Positions 7,636 through 61,046 of a DNA stretch of 64,000 bases are shown here, one piece after another (within the stretch, counting starts at the first letter, position 1; the number at the start of each line of letters is the position of its first letter). The stretch is from Oscillospiraceae bacterium (GTDB lineage Bacteria > Bacillota > Clostridia > Oscillospirales > JAKOTC01): the NCBI GenBank assembly GCA_035380125.1, contig DAOSWV010000009.1, forward strand, positions 7,304 through 71,303, written 5' to 3'. The translations under genes and the position numbers were made by a program. The notes beneath the pieces are model-generated. The model was not told the origin of the DNA. It was given only the letters and a program-made list of their open reading frames with translations, and did no database searches.

Positions 7636-7875
7636 ATTTAGGTGCTTTTTCTTCGAAGGGGGGATTCGGGACTATCCCCCCTTCGCGCTTCGCTAGCCCC
7701 CCTAACCAAGGTACGCCTGCAGGCGGAATTAGATTTTTCTTCTGAGGATAGGTGTAGAACAGTGCAAACCTAAAATATTAACTAGATGCCGCTCACAAAC
7801 GCGTCGGATGACGACGCGTTTCGAATAAAACGCCTCCGGTGTTGGCGTGGGATTGGCCTTTCGACCGTTTCCGCC

Positions 7876-10181: not shown

Positions 10182-10186
10182 TGTAG

Positions 10187-19435: not shown

Positions 19436-19558
19436 ATTAAAAGCATACAACCAGCAGAAATAAAAAAACATGACGCTTCCTTTGTAAATCATATTAATAT
19501 AACCACCCCGCCCGCTGGTACCCGTCTACAGAGTGGAATTAAAGACCACACCCCGAAA

Positions 19559-19654: not shown

Positions 19655-19670
19655 TGTTCCACGTGGAACA
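19655..19670. promoter_or_regulatory. parS site 3 (TGTTCCACGTGGAACA)
   Basis: An identical 16-mer lying 1 nt beyond the noc stop codon. Confidence 0.85.
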
Positions 19671-19671
19671 T

Positions 19672-23108: not shown

Positions 23109-23148
23109 GTAATGTCCTTTCGAGGTAAAACGTTTGTTATTTGGTGTA

Positions 23149-23600
23149 AGGGCGGATATCATCCGCTTCCTACAAGGAAAACGACCACCCCGTCACGGCT
23201 TCGCCGTGCCACCCCTCCACAGAGGGGAATTTTTGTTAATTCCATTGGGTTGCCTCTAAGGTTGAATCACGGGCGGATTATATCCGCCCCTACAAGGAAA
23301 TGACCACCCCGTCACGGCTCCTCCGTGCCACCCCAAAGGTGTCAAAGCCGCCCATAGGGCGGTATAGCGACACCATTATAGAGGGGAATTTATTGACGCG
23401 TGCTATCGGGTTTATGGTTCGCAGGTTCTATGACGCGTTTGAAACCGCCATCATGGCGGCGCGTATTGACAGCGGCGTCTCGCCGCCGGGCGGATATTAT
23501 CCGCCCCTACAGAAAAATACCGGGGTCGGAAGCGCGCGCTATGTGGCTTATGGGCAGATGATTCTATGACGCGTTTGACCGCGGGTTCTACCCGCCCCTA
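23149..23600. repeat. Mosaic REP/BIME-like repeat cluster filling the mnmG-mnmE spacer
   Basis: Hairpins at 23149-23167, 23271-23289, 23488-23506 and 23581-23595, each followed by CCTAC or CCCTAC. Short (23183-23235) and long (23302-23395) copies of the two-hairpin module. Two copies of a GCGCG.TAT.GG.TTA.G...TTCTATGACGCGTTTGA module. Confidence 0.75.
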
Positions 23601-26773: not shown

Positions 26774-27790
26774 ATGAAAAAATTCACCGTCGCCCGTAAT
26801 GACAACTTCTATCAGGCGTTCCCGGACGTCACCCTTTTCGGCAACACGCTTTACTGCGTCTTTACCCGTACAACCCACCACGGCGACCGCACCGATTCCC
26901 GCATCATGCTGACCACGAGCGTTGACCGCGGTCAGAGCTGGAGCGAACCGGAAGTGTTGCTCGGTGAAGGCGATCATGAAATCAAAGATGGATTTTTTAA
27001 CTGCGCCCGTATCTCGATCGTCAACGGCGAACTGGCGGTCATTTCCGACCGGATCTATGGCCGCGAATCCGAAGATAAAGCGGAAAATTATATCCTGTTC
27101 TCCAAAGACGGCAAAAAATGGACCAAACCCCATAACACCGGCTGTCAAGGCATCGTGCCGGATAAACTGCTCGAATACAAAGGAACCGTTCTGCTTTCCG
27201 CTCAGCGCAAAATCGACGGGTATTCGCGCCAGTTTTTGTGGATCAGCAAAGACGGCTGTAAAACCTGGGGTGACCGCATTACGTTGGGCTGGGTTGACGG
27301 GCTGAATCTTTGTGAGGTCTCGATTCTGCCGTTGGGCGACGATCTCGTCGCCTTTATGCGCGAAAACTCCGGCCTCGGCTATGACTGTCAGAAAGCTGTC
27401 TCCCATGACGGCGGCAAGACCTGGGGTAAGGTCAGCTGCTTCCCGCTGCCCGGCTGCCACCGCCCCGTCAGCGGCGTTTTGAACAGCGGAAATATTTTGA
27501 TTACCCACCGCTTTATGCAGGGCGGCAAGGGTTGGGTCGGTTTCTGGACTCAAAACTTCTTCGCGGGCCTGACCAACAAAGAATCCGCGCTGGCCGAGGA
27601 ACGCAATCAATGCGCCACCCGCATTATGCCGATCGACTATGACCGCAGCGCGGTTGCCGACATCGGTTACTCGGGCTGGGTACAGTTCCCCGACGGCGAA
27701 ATCGTCATCATTTACTACCTCGTGGACGACGCGCCGAAAGGTCAGATCCGGGGCTGCTCGCTCTTTGAACACGAATTTTTGATCCAATAA
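26774..27790 (+). CDS. BNR/Asp-box six-bladed beta-propeller protein (sialidase-like fold), copy A, no signal peptide
   Basis: Asp-box repeats SVDRGQSW, SKDGKKW, SKDGCKTW and SHDGGKTW. 338 aa. Confidence 0.75.
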   Translation: MKKFTVARNDNFYQAFPDVTLFGNTLYCVFTRTTHHGDRTDSRIMLTTSVDRGQSWSEPEVLLGEGDHEIKDGFFNCARISIVNGELAVISDRIYGRESEDKAENYILFSKDGKKWTKPHNTGCQGIVPDKLLEYKGTVLLSAQRKIDGYSRQFLWISKDGCKTWGDRITLGWVDGLNLCEVSILPLGDDLVAFMRENSGLGYDCQKAVSHDGGKTWGKVSCFPLPGCHRPVSGVLNSGNILITHRFMQGGKGWVGFWTQNFFAGLTNKESALAEERNQCATRIMPIDYDRSAVADIGYSGWVQFPDGEIVIIYYLVDDAPKGQIRGCSLFEHEFLIQ

Positions 27791-27839: not shown

Positions 27840-28856
27840 ATGAAAAAATTCACTGTTGCCCGTAACGACAATTTCTATCAGGCGTTCCCCGATGTCACCC
27901 TCTTCGGACAGACGCTCTACTGCGTTTTTACCCGTACCACACACCATGGTGATCGCCTTGATTCGCGCATCATGCTGACCACCAGCGTTGACCGCGGTCA
28001 GAGCTGGAGCGAACCGGAAGTTTTGATGGGCGAAGGCGATCATGCCATTGAAGACGGTTATTTCAACTGCGCCCGTATTTCGATCGTCAACGGCGAACTG
28101 GCTGTCATCGCGGATCGGGTCTTCGGCGGCGAAGCGAAAGACATGGCGGATAACTATATTATGTTCTCCAAAGACGGCAAAAAATGGACCAAGCCCCACA
28201 ACACCGGCTGCAAAGGCATCGTACCGGATAAACTGCTTGAATACAAAGGAACCGTGCTGCTTTCCGCACACCGCAAAGTTGACGGTTATCTGCGCCAGTT
28301 TTTGTGGATCAGCGAAGACGGCTGCAAGACCTGGGGCGACCGTATTACATTGGGTTCGGTCGACGGTCTGAACCTGTGTGAAGTTTCGATTTTGCCGCTG
28401 GGCGATGACCTTGTCGCTTTTATGCGCGAAAATTCCGGCCTCGGTTACGATTGCCAGAAAACCGTCTCCCATGACGGCGGCAAAACCTGGGGCAAGGTCA
28501 GCTGCTTCCCGCTGCCCGGCTGCCACCGTCCCGTCAGCGGCGTTTTAAACAGCGGAAACATTCTGATCACCCACCGCTTTATGCAGGGTGGTAAGGGCTG
28601 GGTCGGTTTCTGGACTCAAAACTTCTTCGCGGGTCTGACCAACAAGGAATCCGCACTGGCCGAGGAACGTAATCAATGCTCCACCCGTATCATGCCGATC
28701 GATTATGACCGCAGCGCCGTCTCCGATATCGGTTACTCGGGTTGGGTACAGTTCCCCGACGGCGAAATTATCATTATCTACTACATTGTAGACGACGCGC
28801 CGAAAGGTCAGATTCGGGGTTGTTCGCTTCATGAACATGAATTTTTAATCAAATAA
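27840..28856 (+). CDS. BNR/Asp-box beta-propeller protein, copy B (tandem paralog of 26774-27790)
   Basis: Same length as copy A. I count about 28 substitutions and no indels against it. The leader and RBS are duplicated too (GCTGCGAAAGGAAG.CATTC..CATG). Confidence 0.75.
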   Translation: MKKFTVARNDNFYQAFPDVTLFGQTLYCVFTRTTHHGDRLDSRIMLTTSVDRGQSWSEPEVLMGEGDHAIEDGYFNCARISIVNGELAVIADRVFGGEAKDMADNYIMFSKDGKKWTKPHNTGCKGIVPDKLLEYKGTVLLSAHRKVDGYLRQFLWISEDGCKTWGDRITLGSVDGLNLCEVSILPLGDDLVAFMRENSGLGYDCQKTVSHDGGKTWGKVSCFPLPGCHRPVSGVLNSGNILITHRFMQGGKGWVGFWTQNFFAGLTNKESALAEERNQCSTRIMPIDYDRSAVSDIGYSGWVQFPDGEIIIIYYIVDDAPKGQIRGCSLHEHEFLIK

Positions 28857-32489: not shown

Positions 32490-34202
32490 ATGGTTAAGGG
32501 GAAACGGATTGTTTCGCTGGTTTTGGCGCTCGCGTTGTTTGCCGGGCTGTCCGGGTGTGCGGAACAAATTCAGAGCAGTGAGATTGAATCGGCGGTTTCG
32601 GATGAGAGTTCGGCGGTAAGCTCAACGAACTCATCTGTTTTGAGTGCGGTTTCCTCAAGCGAACCGCTCTCGGAAACAAGCGAATCCGTTTCGGAGTCAT
32701 ATATCTCCGAAGACGGATTCGAGGACAGTCGAATTATCAATACCGTGTTTACCAGAGAAGCTCTTGCAAATAATCCTTTGACTTCAACGGAGGGCGGTAT
32801 GGAAGCATCGAAGAAATGGGCCGCTTTGTTTGTTGAAGAAAATTATAAGGATTTTGAACCGTACGATATCACAATCAAATACAGATTCTATTGGGATGAA
32901 ATTTATATTTTATACACCGTATCTGGAGATAAAAAATGCTTTGCAATTATTTATTATACTATCAATTTTAACACAAAATTGGATTTGAGAGAATCGGGTT
33001 TATCTTGGCCAAACCCTCATTTTCATTTACAAGTTGTGATGAAAAACGATAGCGATCAATATTCATTAATCGGGTTTGTGACCAACCAAGATAAAAGTGT
33101 TGAAAATTCTTCTGAGCTTGTCGATTTTATATCGGGAGTTCCGGGCTATGAGTCAACAGTATTTTCTTTTCTTGACTCGCCGGATCCGATTGATCTAAAT
33201 ACTCTCGGTACGGATTTTATTGAAAAGTCCATCGGCGAATCCGGCCTTTCGGTGATTAATTTATCCGCATTTGTCGGAGATTTGAAAATTCGCGATTTGC
33301 ATTATTTCCCCGACAACGTTTTAGCGGTTTTGGTTTCCGATGCAAATGAGCAAAAGAAAATCATGGTTTTCGCCGCAGAGGAAATGGAGTTTTTATACGA
33401 AATAGCGATTGAAGACTCTAATCCGAATTATTTATCGATACAAAAAATCAACCAAGAAACAATTTTACGGCTTGAAATCGATGGTGCCGATCATTATTAT
33501 ACGATTACGCAGTCAGGCCTATCGGAATTTGCACAGGATCGGTTTACCAGATATCGGTTGTCATATAATGCTTATATTATCGAAGAGAAAAACAATCTTG
33601 TTTTAGAACAAAACGGTAAAAGGGAAATCCTCCTTGAAGGCATTTATCCCGAAGATGACGACGATGATACGACATGGAATTGTTATTTTTATTATTGCCG
33701 GATTAATAACACGCGGTTCATCTATAAAAACAACGGTTATGAATGGTTCAATGAATGTGGAGTTTTTGACATCGCAACCGGAGAGGCCACTGTTTTTACG
33801 CATAAAGACGCCCCTCGCTTATATATAAAAGCTTATACAGACGGAAAAGCAATATTGATTCCCGATGACTGGAGCTATTTTCTCTCAATTGGGCCTTATT
33901 TGTATGATGAGTCCACAGGGGAATTAACCGACTTGCATTGGCTCGATGGAACTTATTCCGATGGCTATTATTCATCCTTTGCCCTTTCCGGAAATCTGCT
34001 TGCGGTTGTAATTGAGGATTATCCTCTGGATTCGTTTCGCATTTTTGATTTGACCACTCAAACAGAGATTCTGAATATTCCGTTTATACAAACCCAAAAC
34101 AATTACTTGGAAGCATATTCTTTTTGTGCAACCGAGAATTATTTTTGGTTTTCTTCGGAATATTCGAATTATTATCTTTTCCGTTTTCCGATTGAGAGGT
34201 GA
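32490..34202 (+). CDS. Paralogous lipoprotein 1 (uncharacterised family)
   Basis: Signal and lipobox VSLVLALALFAGLSGC, then a Ser-rich linker. The body is AT-rich. It shares C-terminal motifs with the next two genes. Confidence 0.8.
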   Translation: MVKGKRIVSLVLALALFAGLSGCAEQIQSSEIESAVSDESSAVSSTNSSVLSAVSSSEPLSETSESVSESYISEDGFEDSRIINTVFTREALANNPLTSTEGGMEASKKWAALFVEENYKDFEPYDITIKYRFYWDEIYILYTVSGDKKCFAIIYYTINFNTKLDLRESGLSWPNPHFHLQVVMKNDSDQYSLIGFVTNQDKSVENSSELVDFISGVPGYESTVFSFLDSPDPIDLNTLGTDFIEKSIGESGLSVINLSAFVGDLKIRDLHYFPDNVLAVLVSDANEQKKIMVFAAEEMEFLYEIAIEDSNPNYLSIQKINQETILRLEIDGADHYYTITQSGLSEFAQDRFTRYRLSYNAYIIEEKNNLVLEQNGKREILLEGIYPEDDDDDTTWNCYFYYCRINNTRFIYKNNGYEWFNECGVFDIATGEATVFTHKDAPRLYIKAYTDGKAILIPDDWSYFLSIGPYLYDESTGELTDLHWLDGTYSDGYYSSFALSGNLLAVVIEDYPLDSFRIFDLTTQTEILNIPFIQTQNNYLEAYSFCATENYFWFSSEYSNYYLFRFPIER

Positions 34203-34210
34203 CGTATTAT

Positions 34211-36382
34211 ATGTCGAATTTCAAAAAGATTGCTTCGGTGGTTTTGGCGCTCGCTTTGTTTGCCGGGTTATTCGGATGTGCGGAGCAAATTCAGAGTGGT
34301 GAGATTGAATCGGCGGTTTCAAGTGAAATTACATCCGGCGAATCAACCTCTTCGGTTGAATATGTCCCGCTGGATCGATTTGAGGACGAAAATATTATCA
34401 ATACCGAATGCACGCGGGAAAAACTTGCGCAAACTGTGGTTTCCGCAAAATCCGCCGAATCCGAGTATTGGACGATAAAATTTGTCAGCAGCAATTTTCA
34501 GGCCTATTCCCCTTATTCTATCACCGCAACATCTGCTTTCAATAAGGATAATCCCGTGCTCAAATTTTCATTTCTCAACGGTCGGGAATTACACCGATTT
34601 ATAACCGAAACTTATTCGGTTCGGTTTAAGACCTTAATTCCTTATGAAGGACTGCCCTTAGACGAAAAGGGTTATTACAGCTTTGAGATTCAGCTCGTTA
34701 TGGAACAAAGTGATGACTGTACAAAACTTTTAGGGTATGTCACCAGCCGGACAGATCAAATAAAAACCCCCTCGGATGCAGTGGATTTTCTGAGCATGAT
34801 ACCCGCATATCGGGAATTGCAGTATCCTCCGAAATCGTCCGGGCAGGAAAGCGGTTGGTTTGGAGAAGGGTCGATTATAAACACCGTATACACAAGGATG
34901 TCTCTTTCTGAAAATCCCGTGACTTCGTCTTATGGTTATAGTTCGACGATTTTAGATTGGATCGATTTGTTTATCATTGGGAACTACAATTCTTTTTCGT
35001 CACGTTGGGCTACCACTTTTTCAGAGCAATTTTTTACACTTGATACAATAACCGGCGAAAAAGAATATTTTACAACTTTGAATTGTGTCACCGAATTTAA
35101 ATCCGATATTGAACCGGTGGGGTTGGAATATGACGACGGCAGCTATGAGATCAGTTTTCAAATGGTGATAAAAACGAGCGAAATTTACTATAAAGGGCCT
35201 TTTACGCTGATCGGATTTGTGACCAATCAAGAACGACAGATCATCGAGCCGCTGGAATTGTACGATTTTATAAAAGATGTACCTCGTTATAAAGACACCG
35301 ACTTTATTGTTCCCGAACCGATGAAATTTGTTAAATTGGATTCTCTGGGCTATGACTTTACCGAAACCATTGTGGACGAAGCTACCGGACTTTCGGTTGT
35401 GAATTTACACTCGTTAACCGGCGGGTTGAAGGTTGATGATTTTACGTTCTTCCCCGGCGATTTATTGGCGGTTTTAGCAGTGGATCCCGAAGTTCAAAAT
35501 GAAAAAGTGTTGATGGTATTCAATGCTGATGATCTTCAGCTGCTTTACCAAAAGACCTTTTCTTATCCTTCTGGCACCTACCCGGCCGGCGGTCATGCGG
35601 AGTTTTATAAAATCAACGGAACGCTCGTTTTAGAGCAAAAACTTGGCAATGAGAATTATAAATATTTTATCCCTGAAAAGACCGGTGTTTCGGAAATACC
35701 GAAACCGATTGCAAGATATAGGCTGTCTGATTCCGCTTTTATCGTTGAGGAAAAGAATTGTCTCTATCTTGAACAAAACGGTAAACAAAAACTTCTTCTT
35801 GAAGGTATTGATGAAGATAGCGTTGACAGCGAGGGTTACAGATTTATACACCGAATCAGCGATACGCGGTTTATTTACGAATTAATGGGCTATGAGTGGC
35901 TCGTTGAATGCGGTATCTATGACATAGAAACCGGTGAAAAGACGGTTTTCACACACGAAAATGCCCCGTTGTTGGACATCGAGGCCTATAACGACGGTAA
36001 AGCGATTTTAGTTGCAGATACCTGGTGTGGTCCCGAATATGAGTCATACGGACCCTATTTATACGATGAGTTATCCGGGGAACTGATTGATTTGGCTTTG
36101 CTGAATATCCAGCCCGATGAGACCATGATAAACCCGCTTTTCTATGTTCTCGGAAATACTCTTGTGATTTTTATAAAGAATGATCCTGTTTCAACCCTTT
36201 GTTTTTACAATCTTTCTTTAAAAACACAGATCGTGCAATTCGGTATTTTCTCTAGCCAAGAATATGCATTGAATTATTCCCACTACAACAGCGGGTTATA
36301 TACCACTGAGAATTATATTTGGTTTAATTCGGTCTATGATTTCCCGGCGGATTATCTCCTGCGAATTCCGATAGAGAGGTAA
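34211..36382 (+). CDS. Paralogous lipoprotein 2 (N-domain duplicated)
   Basis: Signal and lipobox ASVVLALALFAGLFGC. It has two copies of the N-domain ending in ..G(Y/F)VT..(Q/R)......(V/Y)DF(L/I)...P.Y. Start is ATG 34211 behind GAGAGG. Confidence 0.8.
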   Translation: MSNFKKIASVVLALALFAGLFGCAEQIQSGEIESAVSSEITSGESTSSVEYVPLDRFEDENIINTECTREKLAQTVVSAKSAESEYWTIKFVSSNFQAYSPYSITATSAFNKDNPVLKFSFLNGRELHRFITETYSVRFKTLIPYEGLPLDEKGYYSFEIQLVMEQSDDCTKLLGYVTSRTDQIKTPSDAVDFLSMIPAYRELQYPPKSSGQESGWFGEGSIINTVYTRMSLSENPVTSSYGYSSTILDWIDLFIIGNYNSFSSRWATTFSEQFFTLDTITGEKEYFTTLNCVTEFKSDIEPVGLEYDDGSYEISFQMVIKTSEIYYKGPFTLIGFVTNQERQIIEPLELYDFIKDVPRYKDTDFIVPEPMKFVKLDSLGYDFTETIVDEATGLSVVNLHSLTGGLKVDDFTFFPGDLLAVLAVDPEVQNEKVLMVFNADDLQLLYQKTFSYPSGTYPAGGHAEFYKINGTLVLEQKLGNENYKYFIPEKTGVSEIPKPIARYRLSDSAFIVEEKNCLYLEQNGKQKLLLEGIDEDSVDSEGYRFIHRISDTRFIYELMGYEWLVECGIYDIETGEKTVFTHENAPLLDIEAYNDGKAILVADTWCGPEYESYGPYLYDELSGELIDLALLNIQPDETMINPLFYVLGNTLVIFIKNDPVSTLCFYNLSLKTQIVQFGIFSSQEYALNYSHYNSGLYTTENYIWFNSVYDFPADYLLRIPIER

Positions 36383-36391
36383 CGAATTAAT

Positions 36392-38005
36392 ATGATTAAA
36401 AGAAAAAAGGTTGTTTCGCTGGTTTTGGCGCTCGCGTTGTTTGCCGGGTTATTCGGGTGTGCGGGACAGGCGCAAAGCAACGAGGTTGAATCGGCGGTTT
36501 CGGAGGGAAGTTCGATGATATCGAGCGAATCAACCTCTTCGGTTGAATATGTCCCGCTGGATCGATTTGAGGATGCAAATATTATCAATATCGTTTATAC
36601 GAGAAAATATCTTAAGGAAAACGAGATGATAATAAATCATGATGCCGCATATGCCTCAAATGAATGGTCATTAATGTTTATTAAAGATAATTATAAGAAT
36701 TATTCTCCGTACAATATCAGCTGTGAATATAAAGCTTTGGAATCATATAGTCCATATGATTATAATAATTGTGACGCCGAATTTACACTCTTCGTCTACT
36801 ATATTGAGTTTCATACCAAAACAGCTCTTAAAGAGCTGTCACCGGATGAAAGCGGGGGTTATAGTTTTTATTTACAGGTTGTAATGAAAAAAATTGATTT
36901 CTATAAGCAATCACTTTTGGGCTTTGTCACCAGTCAAACGCGGCAAATTGACAATGCCAGGGATTTGGCAGAGTTTTTAAAGAAAATTTCAGGATATGAA
37001 TGCTTAGAGCTTAAAAGACCTGTAATACCGGAAACCTTACCAGAAAATATAGAAATTATTTATTCTGCCGATTTTACGAATCTCCATATTACAGATAAAT
37101 TTATCGTAAAGGATACCATTTACTTTTTTGGTATGGAACCCTGTTACTGGCTCACCGGCAAAACGGATTTGATTTTACAAACCTTTTCTTTGCCTGATTT
37201 TCGGTTTCTTTATGAATACCATTTTTCTTTTTACGATGACAGAATTAATTCAATGGATGATGAGGGTATCATTATTAAACGCAAGAATGAACAAGGAAAT
37301 ATCTATTTCCATGCTACTGAAACCGGAGTTTCGCAGCTACCACCTACGCCGGACAGTGAAAAGGACTTATACCGTCTCTCTGAAACTGCAGCAATTCGAG
37401 AAAATGATGATGGTGATCTTTTGCTTGAACAAAACGGAAAAACTGTTATTTTGTTCGATGGTACCCCCTATACAGAGAACGCTTCTTCGGATATCTGCAC
37501 TTATTATTTTTATTATCGCGTGAACGACTCCGCTTTTATTTATATGAGCTATGGTTACGAATGGTGGATAAATTGCGGTATTTATGATATAGCGACAAGA
37601 ACCAACACCGTCTTTTCTCACGAAAACGCGGCTGATATTTGGCCAATTGCAGTAGGAAATAATAAGGTTATACTTGCCGCAGACGCCTATGAGTGGTATA
37701 CTTCATATGGGCCGTATGTCTATGATGCGGTAACCGGAGAAATTTCCGATTTAAATTGGTTCTCAAAAAAATTTGAGGAGGATTACGAACCGGTCATTGA
37801 TCTTTTCGGCGATAAATTAATCGCATTTTCAGAGGAGAATTCAGAATATGTCATCCGGGTTTGTGATTTGAGCACCGATACAAAACCCACTGTTTATCGG
37901 TTTTCGAGAGAAAGGGTAGGTTTGCCCTTAGGGATATATCAAACCGAAGATTCGTTATGGTTTTTTATTCGTTCATGTATTTTCCGAATGAAATCAGAAA
38001 GGTAA
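36392..38005 (+). CDS. Paralogous lipoprotein 3
   Basis: Signal and lipobox VSLVLALALFAGLFGC. 5' DNA is nearly identical to the paralogs and the body is divergent and AT-rich. Confidence 0.8.
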   Translation: MIKRKKVVSLVLALALFAGLFGCAGQAQSNEVESAVSEGSSMISSESTSSVEYVPLDRFEDANIINIVYTRKYLKENEMIINHDAAYASNEWSLMFIKDNYKNYSPYNISCEYKALESYSPYDYNNCDAEFTLFVYYIEFHTKTALKELSPDESGGYSFYLQVVMKKIDFYKQSLLGFVTSQTRQIDNARDLAEFLKKISGYECLELKRPVIPETLPENIEIIYSADFTNLHITDKFIVKDTIYFFGMEPCYWLTGKTDLILQTFSLPDFRFLYEYHFSFYDDRINSMDDEGIIIKRKNEQGNIYFHATETGVSQLPPTPDSEKDLYRLSETAAIRENDDGDLLLEQNGKTVILFDGTPYTENASSDICTYYFYYRVNDSAFIYMSYGYEWWINCGIYDIATRTNTVFSHENAADIWPIAVGNNKVILAADAYEWYTSYGPYVYDAVTGEISDLNWFSKKFEEDYEPVIDLFGDKLIAFSEENSEYVIRVCDLSTDTKPTVYRFSRERVGLPLGIYQTEDSLWFFIRSCIFRMKSER

Positions 38006-38009: not shown

Positions 38010-39284
38010 ATGCTTCAACTCAAACAACTTTCCGATGAGAAACGGGTCGTGCGCCTGACCGCGCTGGCGACGCTTCTCGAACTGGAACGGTCCGGTGCGA
38101 TGAAAGCGCCGGAGACGGGACACTTTGTCAACAACCACATCCACACCAAATTCAGCTTTTCGCCCTACTACCCGACCGGGGCGATTTGGTACGCCCGGGC
38201 AGCCGGACTTCAGACCGCGGGCATTATGGATCACGACTCGGTCAGCGGTATTGACGAGTTTTATGTCGCCGGTGACCTGTGCAAAATGCCGGTTACGAGC
38301 GGCTTTGAGGTGCGTGTCAATCTGGCGGACTCCCCGTTCGGAGACCGCCGCGTCAACAACCCCGACCAAAACGGCGTCGCCTACGTCGCCTGCCACGGCA
38401 TTCCGAAAAACCGTACCGCTCAGGCCGAGGCGTTTTTGGGTCCGATCCGCGCCGCACGCAACATTCGCAATCAGGCTATGGTCGTACGGCTGAACGAACT
38501 GCTTGCGCCCGCCGACATCTTCATCGATTTCGATAAAGACGTCGCGCCGCTTTCCAGATTCAAAGAGGGCGGCAGCATCACCGAGCGCCATCTGCTGTTC
38601 GCGGTCTCCATGGCGCTTGTCGAGCGATTCGGCAAACGCGGCGACGTGGTTCCGTTTTTATCGGACAAACTGGGTGTGCAGTGCAGCGACAAGGTGAAAG
38701 CGCAGCTTTCCGACGTCGATAACCCCTTTTATGAATACGACCTGCTCGGACTTTTAAAGGCGTATCTGGTCAAAGATTTTTATATTCCGGCCAAAGCCGA
38801 ACTGCCCGAACCGCGCAAGTTTATCGAATTTGTCCGCTCCATCGGTGCGATTTCGGCCTACGCCTATCTCGGCGACGTCGGCAGCTCGGTTACGGGCGAC
38901 AAACAGACCGCCAAATACGAGGACGATTATCTCGACGATTTATTCGACTATCTGAAATACACGGGGTTTGACGCGATCACCTATATGCCGTCGCGCAACA
39001 CCTCCGAACAGCTTTCGCGCGTGATGGCGTTATGCGATAAGCACAACTTCTTCCAGATCAGCGGCGAGGACATCAACTCCCCGCGTCAAAGCTTTATCTG
39101 CCCCGCGCTCTCAAAACCCGAATACGCACATCTTTACGAGGCGACCTGGGCGCTGATCGGACATGAACGCGCCGCCGCCAAAAATCCGGCCGACTCGTTC
39201 ACCTCTCCGCAGACGGCGGAAAAATACCCGAAGATGGCGGAACGTGTAAAAGCGTTTGCGGCTATGTGTAGGGAACGGTCTTGA
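38010..39284 (+). CDS. PHP-domain metal-dependent phosphoesterase family protein
   Basis: N-terminal NNHIHTKFSFSP (HxH) and MDHDS motifs of the PHP fold. It starts 4 nt after lipoprotein 3. The last six codons and the stop lie inside a REP hairpin. Confidence 0.75.
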   Translation: MLQLKQLSDEKRVVRLTALATLLELERSGAMKAPETGHFVNNHIHTKFSFSPYYPTGAIWYARAAGLQTAGIMDHDSVSGIDEFYVAGDLCKMPVTSGFEVRVNLADSPFGDRRVNNPDQNGVAYVACHGIPKNRTAQAEAFLGPIRAARNIRNQAMVVRLNELLAPADIFIDFDKDVAPLSRFKEGGSITERHLLFAVSMALVERFGKRGDVVPFLSDKLGVQCSDKVKAQLSDVDNPFYEYDLLGLLKAYLVKDFYIPAKAELPEPRKFIEFVRSIGAISAYAYLGDVGSSVTGDKQTAKYEDDYLDDLFDYLKYTGFDAITYMPSRNTSEQLSRVMALCDKHNFFQISGEDINSPRQSFICPALSKPEYAHLYEATWALIGHERAAAKNPADSFTSPQTAEKYPKMAERVKAFAAMCRERS

Positions 39285-39373
39285 CCGTTCCGCATAAAAA
39301 AATCAACCGTTTCTTTAATCAATCTTCTAAGTCAAAAAATCCCGCGACGGAACGGTCAAGACCGTTCCCTACA
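39267..39373. repeat. Inverted pair of identical REP units
   Basis: TGTAGGGAACGGTCTTGACCGTTCCG at 39267-39292, and its reverse complement ending CCCTACA at 39373. The spacer is 57 bp. Confidence 0.75.
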
Positions 39374-40673: not shown

Positions 40674-40800
40674 GGGGAAGACTTTCACGTAAGGGAAATT
40701 CTTCGGGAGAACTGCGTTGCGTTTCTCTGTAGGGGCGGATATCATCCGCCCGTTGCGGTAGTATCGATTTATTCGGGCGGATATTATCCGCCCCTACATT
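40674..40800. repeat. Repeat cluster upstream of E2
   Basis: GGGGAAGACTTTCACGTAAGGGAAATTCTTC is an inverted copy of the module at 46369-46400. It is followed by two GTAG/CTAC hairpins at 40733-40751 and 40775-40793. Confidence 0.7.
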
Positions 40801-40827
40801 GTGAGAATATTGAAAAGAGGTTATTAC

Positions 40828-42099
40828 ATGGCAATCGGAATTTTGATGCCCAAGCAGGGCATTACGGTGGAATCGTGCATTCTCACCGAGTGGAAAAAGA
40901 AAGTCGGCGACGAGGTTAAGGTCGGTGACGTGCTGTTTGCGTACGAGACCGACAAGGCATCGTTCGAGTGCGAATCCACCGAATCCGGCACGATGCTTGC
41001 GCAGTTTTTTGCGGACGGAGATGAAGTCGCCGTTTTGACCAATGTCTGTGCGATCGGCAAACCCGGTGAGGATTTTGCGGCTTTGGCGCCCCAAAAAGAG
41101 GGGGAAACCGCAGCAACGGCAACTGTTGTTGCTACCTCGACTCCCGAGACGGCGACGGTTCAGGTGTCCGACGTGAAACCCGAACCGGTTCAGACCGTTG
41201 CTGCGGCAGGCGGCGAACTCAAGGTCTCTCCGCGCGCAAAAGCGGCTGCGGAACGGTTGGGCATTGATCTCGGAACCGTGACCCCGTCGGGTCCGGAAGG
41301 CAGAATTATCGAGCGTGATCTGGCTTCGGTCAATACGTTTGCGAAAGAAACTGCGACAACTGCACCGGCTGCTGCGCCGACTCCTGCTGCATCTGCTCCT
41401 GCTGCGGAATTTGAAGACGTCAAGCTCTCCGGCGTACGCCGTTCGATTGCCAAGGCCATGGTCAACTCGCTGTCTTCGATGGCACAGCTGACCCACCATT
41501 TCAGCTTCGACGCGACCGAGATCATGGCGCTGCGCGCCAAGCTCAAGGCCTCGGCCGAAACACTGGGCCTGCCGAATATCACCCTGAACGACATCGTGAT
41601 GTATGCGGTTTCGCGCACGGTCAAAAACCATCCCTACTGCAACGCACACATGATGGGTGACTCGATTCGCCTGTTCAAACACGTCAATCTCGGCATGGCG
41701 GTCGACACCGAACGCGGTCTGCTGGTGCCGACGATTTTTAACGCCGACACCCTGTCGCTTGCCGATATTGCAAAGCAGTCCAAAGCACTGGCCAAAGAGG
41801 CGCAGGGCGGCAGCATCAGCCCGGACAAACTCTCGGGCGGCACCTTCACCGTCTCCAACCTCGGTTCGTTAGGCGTGGAGATGTTCACCCCGATCATCAA
41901 CCCGCCGCAGACCTGCATCATCGGCGTCTGCAACCTCCAGACCAAGGTAAAACTGGTCAACGGCCAACCGGTCTATTATCAGGCGATGGGGCTTTCGCTG
42001 ACCTACGACCACAGAGCGGTCGACGGCGCGCCGGCATCGAGATTTATGCAGGAACTGTGCAGGAATTTGGAGAATTTCAACGCGCTGCTGGCGATGTAA
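40828..42099 (+). CDS. Dihydrolipoamide acyltransferase (E2) of a 2-oxoacid dehydrogenase complex
   Basis: Lipoyl domain with ETDKA, an Ala/Pro linker, a subunit-binding domain (SPRAKAAAERLGIDL) and a catalytic domain with DHRAVDG. Confidence 0.9.
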   Translation: MAIGILMPKQGITVESCILTEWKKKVGDEVKVGDVLFAYETDKASFECESTESGTMLAQFFADGDEVAVLTNVCAIGKPGEDFAALAPQKEGETAATATVVATSTPETATVQVSDVKPEPVQTVAAAGGELKVSPRAKAAAERLGIDLGTVTPSGPEGRIIERDLASVNTFAKETATTAPAAAPTPAASAPAAEFEDVKLSGVRRSIAKAMVNSLSSMAQLTHHFSFDATEIMALRAKLKASAETLGLPNITLNDIVMYAVSRTVKNHPYCNAHMMGDSIRLFKHVNLGMAVDTERGLLVPTIFNADTLSLADIAKQSKALAKEAQGGSISPDKLSGGTFTVSNLGSLGVEMFTPIINPPQTCIIGVCNLQTKVKLVNGQPVYYQAMGLSLTYDHRAVDGAPASRFMQELCRNLENFNALLAM

Positions 42100-42124: not shown

Positions 42125-42294
42125 CGAGATCCTTCGACTACGCGCGTCCCGCGCTGCGCTCAGGATGACATAGCGGGCGACCACATGGGGTCGCCCCTAC
42201 GATGAACCACCCTGTCCGCTTCGCGGCCAACCCCTAAGGCGTCAAAGCCGTCCACAGAGCAGCATAGCGACGCCATGCAGAGGGGAATTTATTG
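42125..42294. repeat. Three-module repeat cluster in the E2-E3 spacer
   Basis: The CGAGATCCTTCGACT...GCGCTCAGGATGACA module is also at 60714-60783. The REP hairpin is at 42175-42196 plus CCTAC. The two-hairpin module is at 42204-42294. Confidence 0.75.
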
Positions 42295-42308: not shown

Positions 42309-43676
42309 ATGGATTTATTTGATCTGATTGTCATCGGCGGAGGTCCGGGCGGCTATTTGGCCGCTGAACGGGCCGGACATGCCGGTTTAAAAGTGGCGCT
42401 GTTTGAAAAACGCTCCTTGGGCGGCGTGTGCCTGAACGAGGGCTGCATCCCGTCGAAAGCGTTATTGTATTCGGCGAAGGTCTTCGACTACGCAAACCAC
42501 GCGTCGGCCTACGGTGTGACCGTAAAAGGCGCAACGATTGACCAAAACACCGTGATTGACCGCAAAGACGGCGTTGTCAAGACGCTTGTTTCCGGCGTCG
42601 GCGCAACCATGAAGAAAAATCACGTCACCGTGGTAAATGCGGCTGCCGTCATCAAAGGCAAAACCGCCGACGGGTTTGAAGTTGAAGCGGACGGGAAATC
42701 CTATACCGGTAAAAAGCTGATTATCGCGGCGGGTTCGGAGGCCGTTGTGCCGCCGATTCCGGGTGCAAAAGAGGGTCTTGCCGCCGGGTACGTGATGACC
42801 AACCGTGAGATTTTGGCACTGCGCGAAATACCGAAGGCGCTGGCCATTATCGGCGGAGGGGTCATCGGGCTTGAGATGGCGAGTTATTTCTGCTCGGTCG
42901 GCTCCAAAGTCACCGTGATTGAGATGCTCAACAAGATCGCGGGTCCGACCGACGACGAAATCTCGACGATTTTACAGAAAAACTACGCCAAAAAGGGCGT
43001 GGACTTTAAACTGGGCTGCAAGGTTACAGGTTTTGAAAAAGGCAGCGTCTCTTATACCGACCCAGAGGGTAAAGCCCAAACGCTTGCCTGCGATTATGCG
43101 CTGATGTCGATCGGCAGACGGCCTTCGAGCGCCGGTTTGGGGCTTGAAGCCATCGGCGTTTATATGGAACGCGGCGCGGTCAAGACCGACGACCATCTGC
43201 TGACCAACGTCCCGGATGTGTATGCGGTCGGCGATATCAACGGAAAACTGATGCTGGCGCACACGGCTTACCGTGAGGCTGAAGTCGCCGTCAACCACAT
43301 TCTCGGCAAAAAAGACACCATGCGTTACGGCGCGATTGCGTCGGTCATTTACACCAATCCCGAGGTCGGCTGTGTCGGCGAGACCGAAGAGAGTGCAAAG
43401 CAAAAGGGCTTTACGGTCAAAACCGCCAAACTGCCGATGATCTACAGCGGCCGGTATCTGGCCGAAGGCGGCGGAGACGGTATTTGCAAAATCATCGCCG
43501 ACGCCAAAACCAATAAACTGCTCGGTGTGCATATGATCGGCAGCTACTGCTCCGAAATTATCTACGGCGCGGCTCAGATGATCGAGTCGGGTATGAAAAT
43601 CGAAACCCTTAAGGAGCTGGTTTTTCCGCACCCCACGGTCAGCGAGATCGTGCGTGAAGTCCTGTTTGAGCTTTAA
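42309..43676 (+). CDS. lpdA: Dihydrolipoyl dehydrogenase (E3)
   Basis: GGGPGGY FAD motif, redox-active CLNEGCIPSK, and the C-terminal HPT.SE interface motif. Confidence 0.92.
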   Translation: MDLFDLIVIGGGPGGYLAAERAGHAGLKVALFEKRSLGGVCLNEGCIPSKALLYSAKVFDYANHASAYGVTVKGATIDQNTVIDRKDGVVKTLVSGVGATMKKNHVTVVNAAAVIKGKTADGFEVEADGKSYTGKKLIIAAGSEAVVPPIPGAKEGLAAGYVMTNREILALREIPKALAIIGGGVIGLEMASYFCSVGSKVTVIEMLNKIAGPTDDEISTILQKNYAKKGVDFKLGCKVTGFEKGSVSYTDPEGKAQTLACDYALMSIGRRPSSAGLGLEAIGVYMERGAVKTDDHLLTNVPDVYAVGDINGKLMLAHTAYREAEVAVNHILGKKDTMRYGAIASVIYTNPEVGCVGETEESAKQKGFTVKTAKLPMIYSGRYLAEGGGDGICKIIADAKTNKLLGVHMIGSYCSEIIYGAAQMIESGMKIETLKELVFPHPTVSEIVREVLFEL

Positions 43677-43680: not shown

Positions 43681-43792
43681 ACAGAAGTGAGAAGTTAGAA
43701 GACAGAAAGGATACGGTTCTAATTATTTCGCTTTATTCCGCTGCCTTTTCGTAGAACGCTTTTCATACGGGCGATTACGAATCGCCCCTACT
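43681..43792. repeat. Heptamer-periodic array plus REP hairpin after lpd
   Basis: ACAGAAG TGAGAAG TTAGAAG ACAGAAA (43681-43708). Hairpin GGGCGAT-TACGA-ATCGCCC plus CTAC (43769-43791). Confidence 0.55.
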
Positions 43793-43874
43793 GTTTATTT
43801 TTGACGATTTTAAAAGAAAATGGTATAATACGATATACCCTTACCGCAACCATAAGAAAGAAGGATAACACCCC

Positions 43875-59717: not shown

Positions 59718-59730
59718 ATTAAAAATGAAT

Positions 59731-60262
59731 GTAGGGCGGGATTAGTAATCCCGCCGAAAAAAAGCGCCGAATGATCGGCGCTTTTTTATGTTTAACCACC
59801 CCGCCCGCTTCGCGTCCAACCTCTAAGGCGTCAAAGCCGTCCACAGGGCGGCATAGCGATGCCATGCAGAGGGGAATAAAGGTTTTCAACACGTTGCTGG
59901 CGATGTGAGGAAAAAATCGATAAATCTGTAGGGCGCGGCATCTCTGACGCGCCGCACGGATTATGATCACCCCACCGAAAAACGACATGTTATCCGCGCC
60001 ACGGGGGAATCCGCACGGCAGGAACGGGGTTGTCACGTCTGACAATGATGAAATTCGGAAAAAGATTACGGCGCGTCAGGGATGCCGCGCCCTACAACGA
60101 AAAAAGTTCACTGAGATGCGGCGGAGCGACGAGGGCGTCGCTCCCTACGACGAACCCCCGGCGCGCTGCGCCAACCCCTAAGGTGTCAAAGCCGCCCACA
60201 GGGCGGTATAACGACGCCATGAAGAGGGGAATATAAGCGGGCGAACGAAGTTCGCCCTTACA
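59731..60262. repeat. Dense mosaic repeat cluster (REP hairpins, two copies of the two-hairpin module, a TIR-bounded unit)
   Basis: Hairpins at 59735-59755, 59932-59953, 60070-60091, 60123-60144 and 60239-60257, with GTAG or CTAC flanks. Two-hairpin modules at 59794-59882 and 60154-60236. Confidence 0.75.
59764..59787 (+). terminator. Intrinsic terminator after glyQS
   Basis: GCGCCGA-ATGA-TCGGCGC followed by TTTTTT. Confidence 0.7.
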
Positions 60263-60713: not shown

Positions 60714-61046
60714 TTCGAGATCCTTCAGACTTCAAAGAACATTCGCAAACGTTCTTCGGCAAAGCGCTCCGCTCAGGATGACATGTTCTATCGTCGGGTT
60801 GTCGATTAGGACAGCCGATATCCCATATAATTAGATTACGGGCGGATAATATCCGCCCCTACGGAGAAACATCGGGGATGATGGCATGGCTACTAGGCGA
60901 AGCCCCTGCGAAGATTACGGCGCGTCAGGGATGCCGCGCCCTACAGAGAAACACAGGGCATGGCAGCGCGCGTTATCGGGTTTACGTACAACAGATTCTA
61001 TTTCGCGTATAAGAGCGGCGTTTCGCCGCCGCGGGTTCTCACCCGC
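60714..61046. repeat. Mosaic repeat cluster downstream of mntP
   Basis: The TCGAGATCCTTCAGACT...CGCTCAGGATGACA module. Hairpins at 60840-60858 and 60919-60940, the latter inside a 35-nt exact copy of 60062-60096. The GCGCGTTATCGGGTTTACG...TTCTAT module. Hairpins at 61015-61029 and 61030-61045. Confidence 0.7.

What the first reader, a model, noticed from the sequence alone, without database searches (positions are those of the whole stretch)
42204..42294. About 90-nt two-hairpin repeat module with compensatory and plus-strand-specific wobble changes (candidate structured RNA or mobile module)
Copies lie at 23302-23395, 42204-42294, 59794-59882 and 60154-60236. A short form lacking the inner hairpin is at 23183-23235, and degenerate copies are at 19501-19544 and about 7681-7735. 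All are in the same (plus) orientation. The consensus layout has four parts. First, (G)AACCACCCC. Second, hairpin 1 with a TTC-type loop and covarying stems: CACGGC/GCCGTG, CCGC/GCGG, CGC/GCG, GGCGC/GCGCC. Third, CCAACCCCTAAGG. Fourth, a nested hairpin GGYGTC-AAAG-CCGYCC-ACA-GGGCGG-…-GAYRCC followed by …AGAGGGGAAT. In the outer nested stem, the pair at position 3 is T-A in copy 23302 and C-G in copy 42204, a double compensatory change. Copies 59794 (GGCGTC/GATGCC) and 60154 (GGTGTC/GACGCC) each carry a G-T pair. That pair is acceptable only as G-U on a plus-strand transcript and would be C-A on the other strand. CCCCT…AGGGG can close the whole element. This looks like selection on structure rather than simple sequence drift.
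Basis: seen in the sequence. Interest (0 to 1): 0.55.

Follow-up and report, generated by a model that had tools for sequence, protein, structure and literature searches.

The report
Mobile hairpin repeat linked to DUF559
The 90-base repeat is real, but it is most likely a local, enlarged version of a small palindromic DNA element rather than a structured RNA; that element is scattered through many bacterial phyla and phages and elsewhere flanks a small nuclease gene of unknown function (DUF559).

Summary
The window holds four long copies (about 23302, 42204, 59794, 60152), one short copy (23183-23231) and one degenerate copy (19499-19543). A seventh candidate (7671-7733) is doubtful. All lie on the + strand.

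The short copy is a canonical member of a previously unlisted family: R-ACCACCCCG-[variable hairpin P1]-CCACCCCTC-[4-5 nt]-GAGGGGAATT. This exact pattern occurs in at least 120 stretches of GTDB genomes from many phyla and in 26 viral contigs. P1 covaries strongly (201 double changes, 98% paired) but has no G-U intermediates. Copies show no sense-strand bias, often form inverted doublets, and can sit in frame inside genes. That is the signature of a DNA palindrome, not an RNA.

In 9 loci found through the module, and in 5 of 5 loci found independently through the protein, modules lie next to a DUF559 (Vsr-like) gene, mostly as inverted ends. Presence/absence differences occur at orthologous sites.

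The window's long form is the short form plus a roughly 45-nt nested hairpin in the P2 loop, and it is restricted to this digester Clostridia lineage. With only seven copies, its covariation and "plus-strand wobble" are not significant. Rfam and the literature searched have no match.

The parts
42204..42289 (+). Long-form module (the finding). It has five parts: a 5' box GAACCACCCT; hairpin P1 at 42214-42228; a closing helix CCCCT (42231-42235) with AGGGG (42281-42285); a nested outer stem GGCGTC (42238-42243) with GACGCC (42269-42274); and an inner stem GCCGTCC (42247-42253) with GAGCAGC (42257-42263), which carries two C-A mismatches. It ends in AATT. It lies between the E2 (40801-42099) and lpd (42309-43676) genes, in sense orientation.
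   Evidence: (17.5 bits for the 5' half); genes
23183..23231 (+). Canonical short-form module: GACCACCCCG-TCACGGCTTCGCCGTG-CCACCCCTC-CACA-GAGGGGAATT. It lies between mnmG and mnmE, both on the minus strand, so it is antisense to them.
   Evidence: (53.3 bits, E=1e-12); genes
23302..23390 (+). Long-form module with the T-A variant of the nested outer stem.
   Evidence: (21.5 bits)
59794..59877 (+). Long-form module directly after the terminator-like hairpin of the glycyl-tRNA synthetase gene. It has a G-T pair in the nested outer stem.
   Evidence: (14.9 bits)
60152..60232 (+). Long-form module with a diverged 5' box (GAACCCCC).
19499..19543 (+). Degenerate short-form copy between parA and parB, both on the minus strand.
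   Evidence: 18.2 bits, E=0.004; genes
7671..7733 (+). Doubtful remnant downstream of a tRNA gene.
   Evidence: 8.6 bits, E=1.5
42175..42200 (+). REP-like hairpin ending in CCCTAC, immediately 5' of the module. It belongs to a separate repeat family that is the module's usual neighbour in this lineage.
23271..23293 (+). REP-like hairpin GGGCGGATTATATCCGCCC-CTAC, immediately 5' of module 23302.
60123..60148 (+). REP-like hairpin GGAGCGACGAGGGCGTCGCTCC-CTAC, immediately 5' of module 60152.

Best explanation
The window's modules are copies of a small palindromic, selfish DNA repeat, comparable to a MITE or a REP element.

**Basic unit.** It is 45-75 nt long: R-ACCACCCCG, a hairpin P1 of free sequence, CCACCCCTC, a 4-5 nt loop, GAGGGGAATT. 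CCCCTC and GAGGGG form hairpin P2.

**Long form.** In this digester Clostridia lineage most copies carry a second palindromic piece of about 45 nt nested in the P2 loop. Most also sit directly 3' of a REP-type hairpin.

**Shown here.**
- The window copies belong to the family.
- The family occurs across phyla and in phages.
- Selection acts on the P1 palindrome but not on its sequence.
- There is no transcript-strand bias.
- Copies form inverted doublets.
- Presence and absence differ at orthologous sites.
- Modules are tightly adjacent, mostly as inverted pairs, to one subfamily of DUF559 (Vsr-like PD-(D/E)XK) nuclease genes, with the GGGGAATT ends pointing outward.

**Inferred.**
- The two boxes and P2 are contacted by a protein, most likely the DUF559 nuclease acting in trans. 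P1 need only form a hairpin or cruciform in DNA.
- The nuclease nicks or cuts at or beside the module, and copying by repair or recombination spreads both cassettes and gene-less modules.
- Phages carry the element between hosts.
- The window copies are probably old, immobile relics. No DUF559 gene of this subfamily was seen in the 82 kb examined. They may incidentally affect transcripts that cross them.
For: **Family membership.** The copy at 23181-23234 matches the exact pattern and scores 53.3 bits with model R1, which was built from foreign copies. The long forms match through the 5' box and P1 and share the 3' AGAGGGGAAT.

**Distribution.** The hosts include Chryseobacterium, Oscillospiraceae, Planctomycetota, Rickettsiales, Propionibacteriaceae, Cloacimonadales, Chlorobiaceae, cyanobacteria and proteobacteria. 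That gives 199 matches with 126 distinct P1 inserts. Model R1 finds 195 hits in 737 kb of these loci.

**Sharp ends.** Conservation falls to background at -2 and at +3/+4.

**Palindrome selection.** 98.1% of cells are paired against 85% in shuffles. There are 201 double-change cells, 5 of 6 P1 pairs covary, and there are 0 one-sided changes. G-U pairs make up 1.4% on the + strand and 2.7% on the minus strand in free folds.

**Orientation.** In co-directional gene contexts there are 36 sense and 55 antisense copies. Inverted neighbour pairs number 82 against 44 direct pairs, mostly 5-90 nt apart.

**Insertion and polymorphism.** The E2-lpd spacer is 209 nt with REP plus module in the window. 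It carries a module in L013, only a decayed remnant in L022, and is 15 and 51 nt long in L024 and L025. Chryseobacterium L109 has a module where the orthologous spacer of L077 has none.

**DUF559 link.**
- Nine loci found through the module have a DUF559 gene within about 25-90 nt.
- Eight inverted module pairs with 353-641 nt between them have the '< gene >' polarity, against one of the opposite polarity.
- These proteins are 56-68% identical across phyla.
- Five loci found through the protein (viral L172; L180, L190, L193, L195) all have modules beside the gene.
- More distant DUF559 genes are flanked by other GC-rich hairpin repeats with the same TTCCCC...GGGGAA theme.

**Nuclease class.** DUF559 is grouped with Vsr and with the homing endonuclease I-Bth0305I (PMC3424549). 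The closest solved structure is 3HRL.
Against: - No target-site duplication or base-exact empty site was recovered. The filled/empty comparisons lie in diverged spacers.
- A PD-(D/E)XK nuclease alone has no known strand-transfer activity, so the copying step is entirely inferred.
- Most copies are single modules: 98 of the clusters away from locus ends. A cut-and-paste model with two ends does not explain these.
- No DUF559 gene of this subfamily lies in the window or its 18 kb of flanks.
- All same-species contigs are identical at the module sites, so there is no evidence of current mobility here.
- DUF559 genes commonly sit in restriction-modification neighbourhoods. The flanking hairpins could therefore have another role there.
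- In two phage fragments all copies lie in sense orientation downstream of structural genes, which leaves room for an RNA-level role.
- P1 loops are asymmetric: TNC on the + strand, which is GNA on the other strand. The model does not explain this.
Confidence: 0.6

Rival explanations
1. The module is a structured RNA read from the plus strand, either a small RNA or a cis-acting element. Its hairpins are kept by selection on the transcript.
For: - Every copy folds into the proposed shape on the + strand, with z-scores down to -4.3. The minus strand folds less consistently.
- P1 covaries strongly in the wider family.
- In the seven long copies, G-U cells on the + strand outnumber C-A cells 9 to 3.
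- All window copies are on one strand.
- In phage fragments L034 and L037, copies lie in sense orientation after structural genes.
Against: - No Rfam family matches, at gathering or at permissive thresholds.
- Across 146 members there are no G-U intermediates in P1. That is unusual for a variable RNA helix and is expected for a DNA palindrome.
- There is no sense bias: 36 sense against 55 antisense.
- Three window copies are antisense to the genes around them.
- No neighbouring gene family recurs apart from DUF559.
- Copies occur in frame inside hsdR and a methylase gene.
- The long-form covariation is not significant: 73 of 500 shuffles do as well.
- Copy 42204 has two mismatches that are wobble pairs only on the minus strand.
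Confidence: 0.1
2. In this lineage the module is part of a REP/BIME-type mosaic, spread or homogenised by the REP-associated tyrosine transposase (RAYT) encoded about 8 kb beyond the right end of the window. DUF559 would not be involved.
For: - Six of the nine copies from this lineage follow directly after a GC-rich hairpin ending in CCCTAC.
- Such hairpins occur in both orientations and as inverted doublets in the window.
- A Y1 transposase gene passes the Pfam cut-off (PF01797, 27.5 bits, cut-off 23). Its best NCBIfam hit is REP_Tyr_transpos, at 65.8 bits. It is followed by three tandem REPs at L014 19825-20020.
- The REP plus P1 part of L013 is closer to window copy 60152 (84%) than to its positional counterpart 42204 (74%).
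Against: - The module itself has no GTAG/CTAC head.
- The same module occurs in many phyla and in phages where a CCCTAC hairpin lies upstream in only 7 of 281 copies.
- Two copies from this lineage follow a terminator-like hairpin instead of a REP.
- The NCBIfam score is below the curated cut-off of 80.
- Most REPs in the window have no module beside them.
Confidence: 0.12
3. The module is kept because it works as a transcription terminator or as a 3' hairpin that protects mRNA, as some REP and ERIC elements do. Its spread would be secondary.
For: - P2 is a 6-7 bp G+C-rich hairpin followed by AATT, with T at +3/+4 in about half of the copies.
- The short form at 23212-23227 passes the terminator-like scan.
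- Copies are commoner between convergent genes (41) than between divergent genes (24).
- Copies follow the major head, tail and sheath genes in two phage fragments.
Against: - None of the long forms passes the terminator scan.
- The one that passes is on the strand opposite to both flanking genes.
- Two A residues separate the stem from the T run.
- Antisense copies are at least as common as sense copies.
- A terminator role does not explain two invariant 9-nt boxes, or their conservation across phyla.
Confidence: 0.1

Closest known systems
REP/REPIN elements with their RAYT (REP-associated tyrosine transposase) genes
   Same: - Short G+C-rich palindromic repeats lying in spacers.
- They occur as singlets and as inverted doublets.
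- The presumed enzyme gene is itself flanked by inverted copies.
- Different enzyme subfamilies go with different repeat sequences.
   Different: - The associated gene is a DUF559/Vsr-like PD-(D/E)XK nuclease, not a Y1 HUH transposase.
- There is no GTAG head.
- Two invariant 9-nt boxes are conserved across phyla and phages, whereas REPs are specific to a species or genus.
- True REPs with a RAYT coexist in this genome as a separate family.
MITEs (miniature inverted-repeat transposable elements) and their parent insertion sequences
   Same: - Small non-coding units.
- Inverted pairs with a short interior look like gene-less versions of the '< DUF559 >' cassette.
- Presence and absence differ between related genomes.
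   Different: - No DDE or other known transposase is present.
- No target-site duplication was demonstrated.
- Most copies are single ends.
- Each end is itself a two-hairpin palindrome.
Rickettsia palindromic elements (RPEs)
   Same: Palindromic repeats that can sit in frame inside protein-coding genes without breaking them. Here this is seen in an hsdR gene and a DNA methylase gene.
   Different: RPEs are confined to Rickettsia, are 100-150 bp long and are unrelated in sequence (my own knowledge, not tested here). In-frame insertion is not seen in the window.
Free-standing and intron-borne homing endonucleases of the Vsr-like class (I-Bth0305I)
   Same: The nuclease fold class is the same: DUF559 is grouped with Vsr and I-Bth0305I (PMC3424549). 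A small nuclease gene moves between unrelated hosts and phages, and its cassette can lie inside conserved genes.
   Different: Homing endonuclease genes are not known to carry conserved inverted terminal hairpin modules, or to leave gene-less copies. No intron or intein surrounds these cassettes.
ERIC/IRU and BOX-type mosaic repeats
   Same: Modular build, with short and long forms that differ by an internal insertion at a fixed point.
   Different: Those families are restricted to one lineage and have no associated gene. Here only the long-form insert is restricted to one lineage: the genome scan with a pattern specific to the nested piece found nothing.

Membership tests
ACCACCCCG-P1-CCACCCCTC-loop-GAGGGGAATT module family (defined here; model R1) | 5' box (R)ACCACCCCG | tested here: met
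   The box is exact in copies 23183, 23302 and 59794. It has one mismatch in 42204 (ACCACCCTG) and is diverged in 60152 (ACCCCCGG).
ACCACCCCG-P1-CCACCCCTC-loop-GAGGGGAATT module family (defined here; model R1) | Hairpin P1 of free sequence between the boxes | tested here: met
   The window copies show CACGGC/GCCGTG, CCGC/GCGG, CGC/GCG and GGCGC/GCGCC. Across the family, 5 of 6 pairs covary.
ACCACCCCG-P1-CCACCCCTC-loop-GAGGGGAATT module family (defined here; model R1) | 3' box CCACCCCTC pairing with GAGGGG across a 4-5 nt loop, ending in AATT | tested here: met
   This is met in full by the short form 23183-23231 (53.3 bits). In the long forms the helix CCCCT/AGGGG and the end AGAGGGGAAT are kept, but the loop is replaced by a nested hairpin of about 45 nt.
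REP/REPIN-RAYT | Conserved GTAG (CTAC) head next to a G+C-rich palindrome | tested here: not met
   The module has no such head. The neighbouring hairpins at 23271, 42175 and 60123 do have it, and they form a separate family.
REP/REPIN-RAYT | Y1 transposase (RAYT) gene flanked by the repeats | tested here: not met
   The RAYT-like gene at L014:19187-19795 is followed by three CCCTAC-type REPs and not by modules.
MITE | Terminal inverted repeats bounding a short non-coding unit | tested here: inconclusive
   Inverted doublets are common in other genomes. In the window, all copies are single or direct and lie on one strand.
MITE | Target-site duplication | tested here: inconclusive
   The flanks show only A at -1 and TT at +1/+2, which may belong to the element itself. 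No base-exact empty site was found.
MITE | A related gene-carrying (autonomous) element with the same ends | tested here: met
   '< DUF559 >' cassettes were found in 9 loci ascertained through the module, and modules lie beside the gene in 5 of 5 loci ascertained through the protein. Whether DUF559 drives movement cannot be tested with these tools.
Any Rfam 15 RNA family (including twister, hammerhead, pistol, hatchet, HDV-like and the pnuC/NAD+-II motif) | A score at or near the family's gathering threshold | tested here: not met
   In the window, only a tRNA reaches a gathering score. Permissive scans of window copies and of canonical foreign copies give only chance-level hits.
Intrinsic terminator | G+C-rich stem directly followed by a T run, on the strand of the upstream gene | tested here: not met
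   Only 23212-23227 fits the pattern, and it is antisense to both neighbouring genes. The long forms do not fit.
Cis-regulatory RNA or riboswitch | Fixed sense orientation upstream of a recurring class of genes | tested here: not met
   Copies are 36 sense against 55 antisense. No neighbouring gene family recurs apart from DUF559.

The most novel reading that the evidence does not exclude
The module family is the cis-acting end of a so far unrecognised class of mobile element whose enzyme is a DUF559/Vsr-like PD-(D/E)XK nuclease. This would be a counterpart of the REP-RAYT partnership built on a different nuclease fold. On this reading the cassettes and their gene-less copies move between phyla on phages. 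Each DUF559 subfamily keeps its own cognate hairpin repeat. The cassettes can settle in frame inside restriction-modification genes. This would give the large DUF559/COG2852 family its first concrete function.
Probability: 0.4. Interest if true: 0.8.

Novelty: new variant of a known kind. Interest (0 to 1): 0.62.

Why it matters
DUF559 (COG2852) is a very large family with no established role. More than 5,700 protein clusters matched this one subfamily alone before the candidate cap. A conserved, easily recognised DNA module that flanks these genes and also occurs as gene-less copies gives a direct test: does the nuclease bind or cut its own flanking module?

If it does, this is a second kind of partnership between a palindromic repeat and its enzyme, alongside REP-RAYT. 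It would be carried by phages across phyla and able to sit inside restriction-modification genes.

There are two practical consequences. The module is a source of spurious ORFs and of N-terminal extensions in DUF559 annotations. It can also be mistaken for a structured RNA because its hairpin covaries.

For this window the consequence is modest. The repeats are inserted selfish DNA in spacers, including one inside the E2-lpd operon.

Tried and rejected
- **Scans for the nested piece.** A pattern specific to the long form's nested piece found nothing in the GTDB genome collection or in viral contigs. The metagenome scan gave 5 hits, of which 3 were real (L011-L013) and 2 were chance.
- **Walking beyond the window.** Going 8-10 kb out from each end added no further long copy.
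- **Translated search.** The two open frames of the module were translated and searched as a profile against 5.8 billion proteins, hoping that spurious ORFs would reveal more copies. Only the window's own 89-aa ORF came back.
- **Sequence strings in the literature.** Only unrelated primer hits were found. Searches for DUF559, COG2852 and YcjD found no paper on flanking repeats.
- **Public annotated collections.** BLAST against GenBank phages gave only a few unannotated faecal 'Bacteriophage sp.' records. PLSDB plasmids and complete E. coli genomes gave nothing.
- **Recurrent neighbour genes.** Clustering all neighbouring ORFs across 146 loci found no recurrent partner except DUF559.
- **Base-exact filled/empty pairs.** An automated search found none. 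Manual comparison found one presence/absence case in a diverged spacer.
- **Ideas considered and dropped.**
  - Self-cleaving ribozymes and the NAD+-II (pnuC) motif: the resemblance was recalled from memory (two C-rich boxes around a hairpin), but there is no Rfam hit and the gene context is wrong.
  - A CRISPR repeat mimic: there is no array structure.
  - ssDNA microvirus origins: the small viral contigs turned out to be fragments of tailed phages.
  - A link between orientation and the replication strand: copies on both sides of dnaA share one orientation.
Full report
**1. What is in the window**

The repeat is real. Four long copies lie at 23302-23390, 42204-42289, 59794-59877 and 60152-60232. 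They are 83-91% identical over a 47-nt core. The 17-nt core pattern matches 4 times with no mismatch, against 0.6 expected by chance with up to 3 mismatches allowed.

A short form without the inner hairpin lies at 23183-23231. A degenerate short form lies at 19499-19543. A doubtful remnant lies at 7671-7733. All are on the + strand.

The minus strand folds less consistently.

However, copy 42204 also has two C-A mismatches in its inner stem, and these would be wobble pairs only on the minus strand.

**2. Surroundings**

The window is the origin-proximal region of a Clostridia-type genome. The relevant genes are:
- parA, parB, mnmG and mnmE on the minus strand;
- an E2-lpd-E1 2-oxoacid dehydrogenase operon;
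- dnaA, dnaN, recF, gyrB, gyrA;
- the glycyl-tRNA synthetase gene and mntP.

The same species occurs in anaerobic-digester metagenomes and in two NCBI MAGs. All of those contigs are about 99-100% identical to the window, with no length differences at the module sites. The closest named relatives of Lpd are Oscillospiraceae and Clostridia MAGs at 66-69% identity.

Copies 19499, 23183 and 23302 are antisense to both flanking genes. Copy 42204 is in sense orientation inside the operon. Copies 59794 and 60152 lie in a 1.3-kb spacer full of other repeats.

Most copies from this lineage directly follow a different repeat: a G+C-rich hairpin ending in CCCTAC. This second repeat occurs in both orientations and as inverted doublets. 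About 8 kb beyond the right end of the window there is a Y1 transposase gene. It scores 27.5 bits against PF01797 (cut-off 23). Its best NCBIfam hit is REP-associated tyrosine transposase, at 65.8 bits and below the cut-off of 80. Three tandem CCCTAC hairpins follow it. The genome therefore has an ordinary REP/RAYT system as well, and the module is its frequent neighbour.

**3. The module is an insertion**

The spacer between E2 and lpd is 209 nt in the window. Related contigs compare as follows:

| Contig | Relationship to the window | E2-lpd spacer |
|---|---|---|
| L013 | about 83% nucleotide identity in the genes | carries a REP plus a module, with different REP and P1 sequences |
| L022 | Lpd 97% aa identity | only a decayed piece resembling the nested hairpin |
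| L024 | Lpd 79% aa identity | 15 nt |
| L025 | Lpd 74% aa identity | 51 nt |

**4. The long form is local**

A pattern specific to the nested hairpin found nothing in 185,579 species-representative genomes and nothing in IMG/VR. It found three real extra copies, all in digester metagenomes. One of these (L011) lacks P1. Another contig (L012) has a short form 30 nt after its long form.

**5. The short form is a cross-phylum family**

The 3' half of the short form occurs in viral contigs. The fuller pattern ACCACCCCG-N8-38-CCACCCCTC-N3-6-GAGGGGAA has 26 specified bases, so essentially no chance matches are expected. It hit 26 viral loci. The hosts include many Chryseobacterium species, Oscillospiraceae, Planctomycetota, Rickettsiales, Propionibacteriaceae, Cloacimonadales, Chlorobiaceae, cyanobacteria, Deinococcales and several proteobacterial classes.

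That gives 199 matches with 126 different P1 inserts of 8-37 nt. The element has sharp ends: purine at -1, then the 5' box, and AATT at the 3' end. Conservation falls to background beyond these.

A covariance model built from 12 foreign copies scores the window's short form at 53.3 bits (E=1e-12). It also picks up the 5' halves of three long forms and the degenerate copy, all on the + strand. The same model finds 195 copies in 737 kb of the fetched loci.

Rfam 15 has no matching family, whether tested on the window copies or on canonical foreign copies. PLSDB plasmids and complete E. coli genomes have none. GenBank phages have only a few unannotated faecal contigs.

**6. RNA or DNA?**

P1 covaries very strongly. 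98.1% of cells are paired against 85% in shuffles. There are 201 double-change cells, and 5 of 6 modelled pairs covary. P2 is invariant. One caveat applies: the alignment was fitted to the model. An independent free fold of each insert gives the same picture, with 97% having at least 3 pairs and a mean of -6.3 kcal/mol against -2.6 for shuffles.

Four observations point away from an RNA.
- There is not one one-sided (G-U) change in the modelled P1 pairs of 146 distinct sequences. G-U pairs are 1.4% and 2.7% of pairs in free folds of the two strands. A variable RNA helix normally shows wobble intermediates; a DNA palindrome does not.
- Orientation relative to co-directional flanking genes is 36 sense to 55 antisense.
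- Neighbouring copies are more often inverted (82 pairs, mostly 5-90 nt apart) than direct (44 pairs).
- No neighbouring gene family recurs except one, treated in section 7.

For the window's nested hairpin, seven copies give 96.8% paired against 95.8% in shuffles, and 73 of 500 shuffles do as well. There are two double changes. Nine G-U cells stand against three C-A cells, several shared by descent.

One asymmetry remains unexplained. P1 loops are mostly TTC, TGC, TAC or TCC on the + strand. On the other strand these read GNA. From my own knowledge, GNA is a very stable triloop type in DNA hairpins.

**7. The DUF559 link**

In L092 (Propionibacteriaceae) and L093 (Cloacimonadales), arrays of modules in opposite orientation bracket a small gene. 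That gene is DUF559, PF04480, at 89-96 bits.

tblastn found such a gene within about 25-90 nt of modules in 9 of 146 loci. Among inverted module pairs, the eight with 353-641 nt between them all have the polarity '< gene >'. The ACCACCCC ends face the gene and the GGGGAATT ends face outward. Only one pair has the opposite polarity.

The eight intact proteins are 56-68% identical, although the hosts span several phyla. The closest solved structure is 3HRL, an 'endonuclease-like protein'. A survey of PD-(D/E)XK nucleases groups DUF559 with Vsr and with the homing endonuclease I-Bth0305I (PMC3424549).

I then ascertained loci through the protein rather than through the module.
- The one close viral relative (L172, 58% identity) has modules on both sides.
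- Four genome or metagenome contexts of proteins from a 5,746-cluster subfamily (L180, L190, L193, L195) all have modules beside the gene. Three of the four have the '< gene >' arrangement.
- In these annotations the called ORF often starts upstream and reads through the left module.
- Three of the seven more distant DUF559 genes in viral contigs are flanked or preceded by other G+C-rich hairpin repeats with the same TTCCCC...GGGGAA theme. This suggests that enzyme and repeat change together.

Two cassettes sit in frame inside larger genes. One is an HsdR, with the cassette between the HSDR_N and SWI2/SNF2 domains. The other is an N6/N4 DNA methylase. Other cassettes lie beside hsdS genes.

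**8. Mobility evidence beyond the window**

In Chryseobacterium, L109 has a module at 7360-7418. The orthologous spacer of L077 is about 55 nt shorter and lacks it. Another module is shared at an orthologous site by L067 and L131.

Identical P1 variants occur in a Cloacimonadales chromosome and in phage contigs. The viral contigs that were checked are fragments of tailed phages.

**9. Best explanation and rivals**

*Shown.* The window's modules belong to a cross-phylum family of discrete palindromic units. Selection keeps the P1 palindrome and the two boxes. The units are not tied to a transcript strand. They come and go at orthologous sites. They form the inverted borders of DUF559 mini-cassettes.

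*Inferred.* The DUF559 nuclease recognises the boxes and P2 and requires P1 only as a hairpin or cruciform. It nicks or cuts there. Repair or recombination then copies cassettes and gene-less modules. Phages move them between hosts.

I put this at about 0.6 overall. Family membership is near certain, a DNA-level selfish element is about 0.7, and DUF559 as the enzyme is about 0.4-0.45.

The weak points are these:
- no target duplication or base-exact empty site was found;
- a lone PD-(D/E)XK nuclease has no known joining activity;
- most copies are single;
- no DUF559 gene of this subfamily was seen near the window.

The rivals are a plus-strand structured RNA (0.1), a REP/RAYT-driven mosaic in this lineage (0.12) and a terminator or mRNA-stabiliser role (0.1). 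For the last, only the short form passes a terminator scan, and it lies on the wrong strand.

**10. Novelty and verdict**

The kind of thing is known: palindromic selfish repeats with an associated enzyme gene, as with REP-RAYT and with MITE-IS pairs. This module, its conservation across phyla and its partner, a DUF559 nuclease, appear in neither Rfam nor the papers I could search. I rate it a new variant of a known kind.

For the window itself the repeats are ordinary inserted selfish DNA. The interest lies in the family they led to.

Noticed in passing
window 10182-10206, 23145-23169, 23271-23293, 23488-23512, 39268-39373, 40728-40799, 43769-43793, 59731-59755, 59927-60096, 60840-60944: A separate REP-type repeat family: CGG, a G+C-rich palindrome, then CCCTAC. 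It occurs in several sequence subtypes and both orientations. Some copies form inverted doublets, for example 39291(-)/39349(+), 40751(-)/40775(+) and 59953(-)/60070(+).
   Followed up: partly
L014:19187-19795 (about 8 kb beyond the right end of the window) and L014:19825-20020: A RAYT-like Y1 transposase gene followed by three tandem REP hairpins about 62 nt apart. A REP-like sequence (GTAGGGGCGGCACCATGTGGCCGCCC, L014 19313-19340) also lies inside the gene's reading frame.
   Followed up: partly
window 19545-19587 and about 19650-19672: Two parS-like sites (TGTTCCACGTGGAACA) lie between parA and parB. The first sits inside a 42-nt perfect palindrome (CCACACCCCGAAATGTTCCACGTGGAACATTTCGGGGTGTGG).
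   Followed up: no
window 23397-23442, 23533-23578, 60967-61012: A third spacer repeat of about 46 nt (CGCGYGCTATSGGGYTTAYGG...TTCTATGACGCGTTTGA), 72-78% identical between copies. Each copy lies just after a module or a REP hairpin. Its nature is unknown.
   Followed up: no
window 26774-27790 and 27840-28856: Two adjacent paralogous genes of 338 aa each, with BNR-repeat-like domains. They share a 300-nt stretch at 86% identity.
   Followed up: partly
window 32490-38005: Three consecutive paralogous genes (570, 727 and 537 aa) that share repeated segments (families D2, D6, D10). They lie in a stretch of lower G+C (0.42-0.47, against about 0.53 elsewhere), so the block may have been acquired. 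None was annotated here.
   Followed up: no
L093:1010-4921 and L142:1856-4384: A complete DUF559 cassette with its flanking modules is in frame inside a type I restriction HsdR gene, between the HSDR_N and SWI2/SNF2 domains. Another is in frame inside an N6/N4 DNA methylase gene, which also carries an extra single module in frame.
   Followed up: partly
L176:1238-2156, L177:1445-2091, L173:1-153: More distant DUF559 genes in viral contigs are flanked or preceded by their own G+C-rich hairpin repeats: TTCCCCTCTCCCCGCGTGCGGGGAGAGG, CCTTCCCCTTGAGGGGAAGG and CCCCCCTTTAGAAAAGGGGGG. Nuclease subfamily and repeat may change together.
   Followed up: partly
family-wide (alignment A6): P1 loops are strongly biased to TNC triloops on the module's + strand (TTC 26, TGC 10, TAC 8, TCC 6 of 126). 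On the other strand these read GNA. This strand asymmetry is not explained by a plain double-stranded palindrome.
   Followed up: no
window 23300-23569 (+) and 59719-60045 (-): Spurious ORFs run through the modules, and gene callers predict them on some public contigs (89 aa in L015 and L016). The module is open in one frame on each strand, reading TTPS..ATP..G(N/I) on the + strand and (I/F)P..GGV..GVV on the minus strand.
   Followed up: yes
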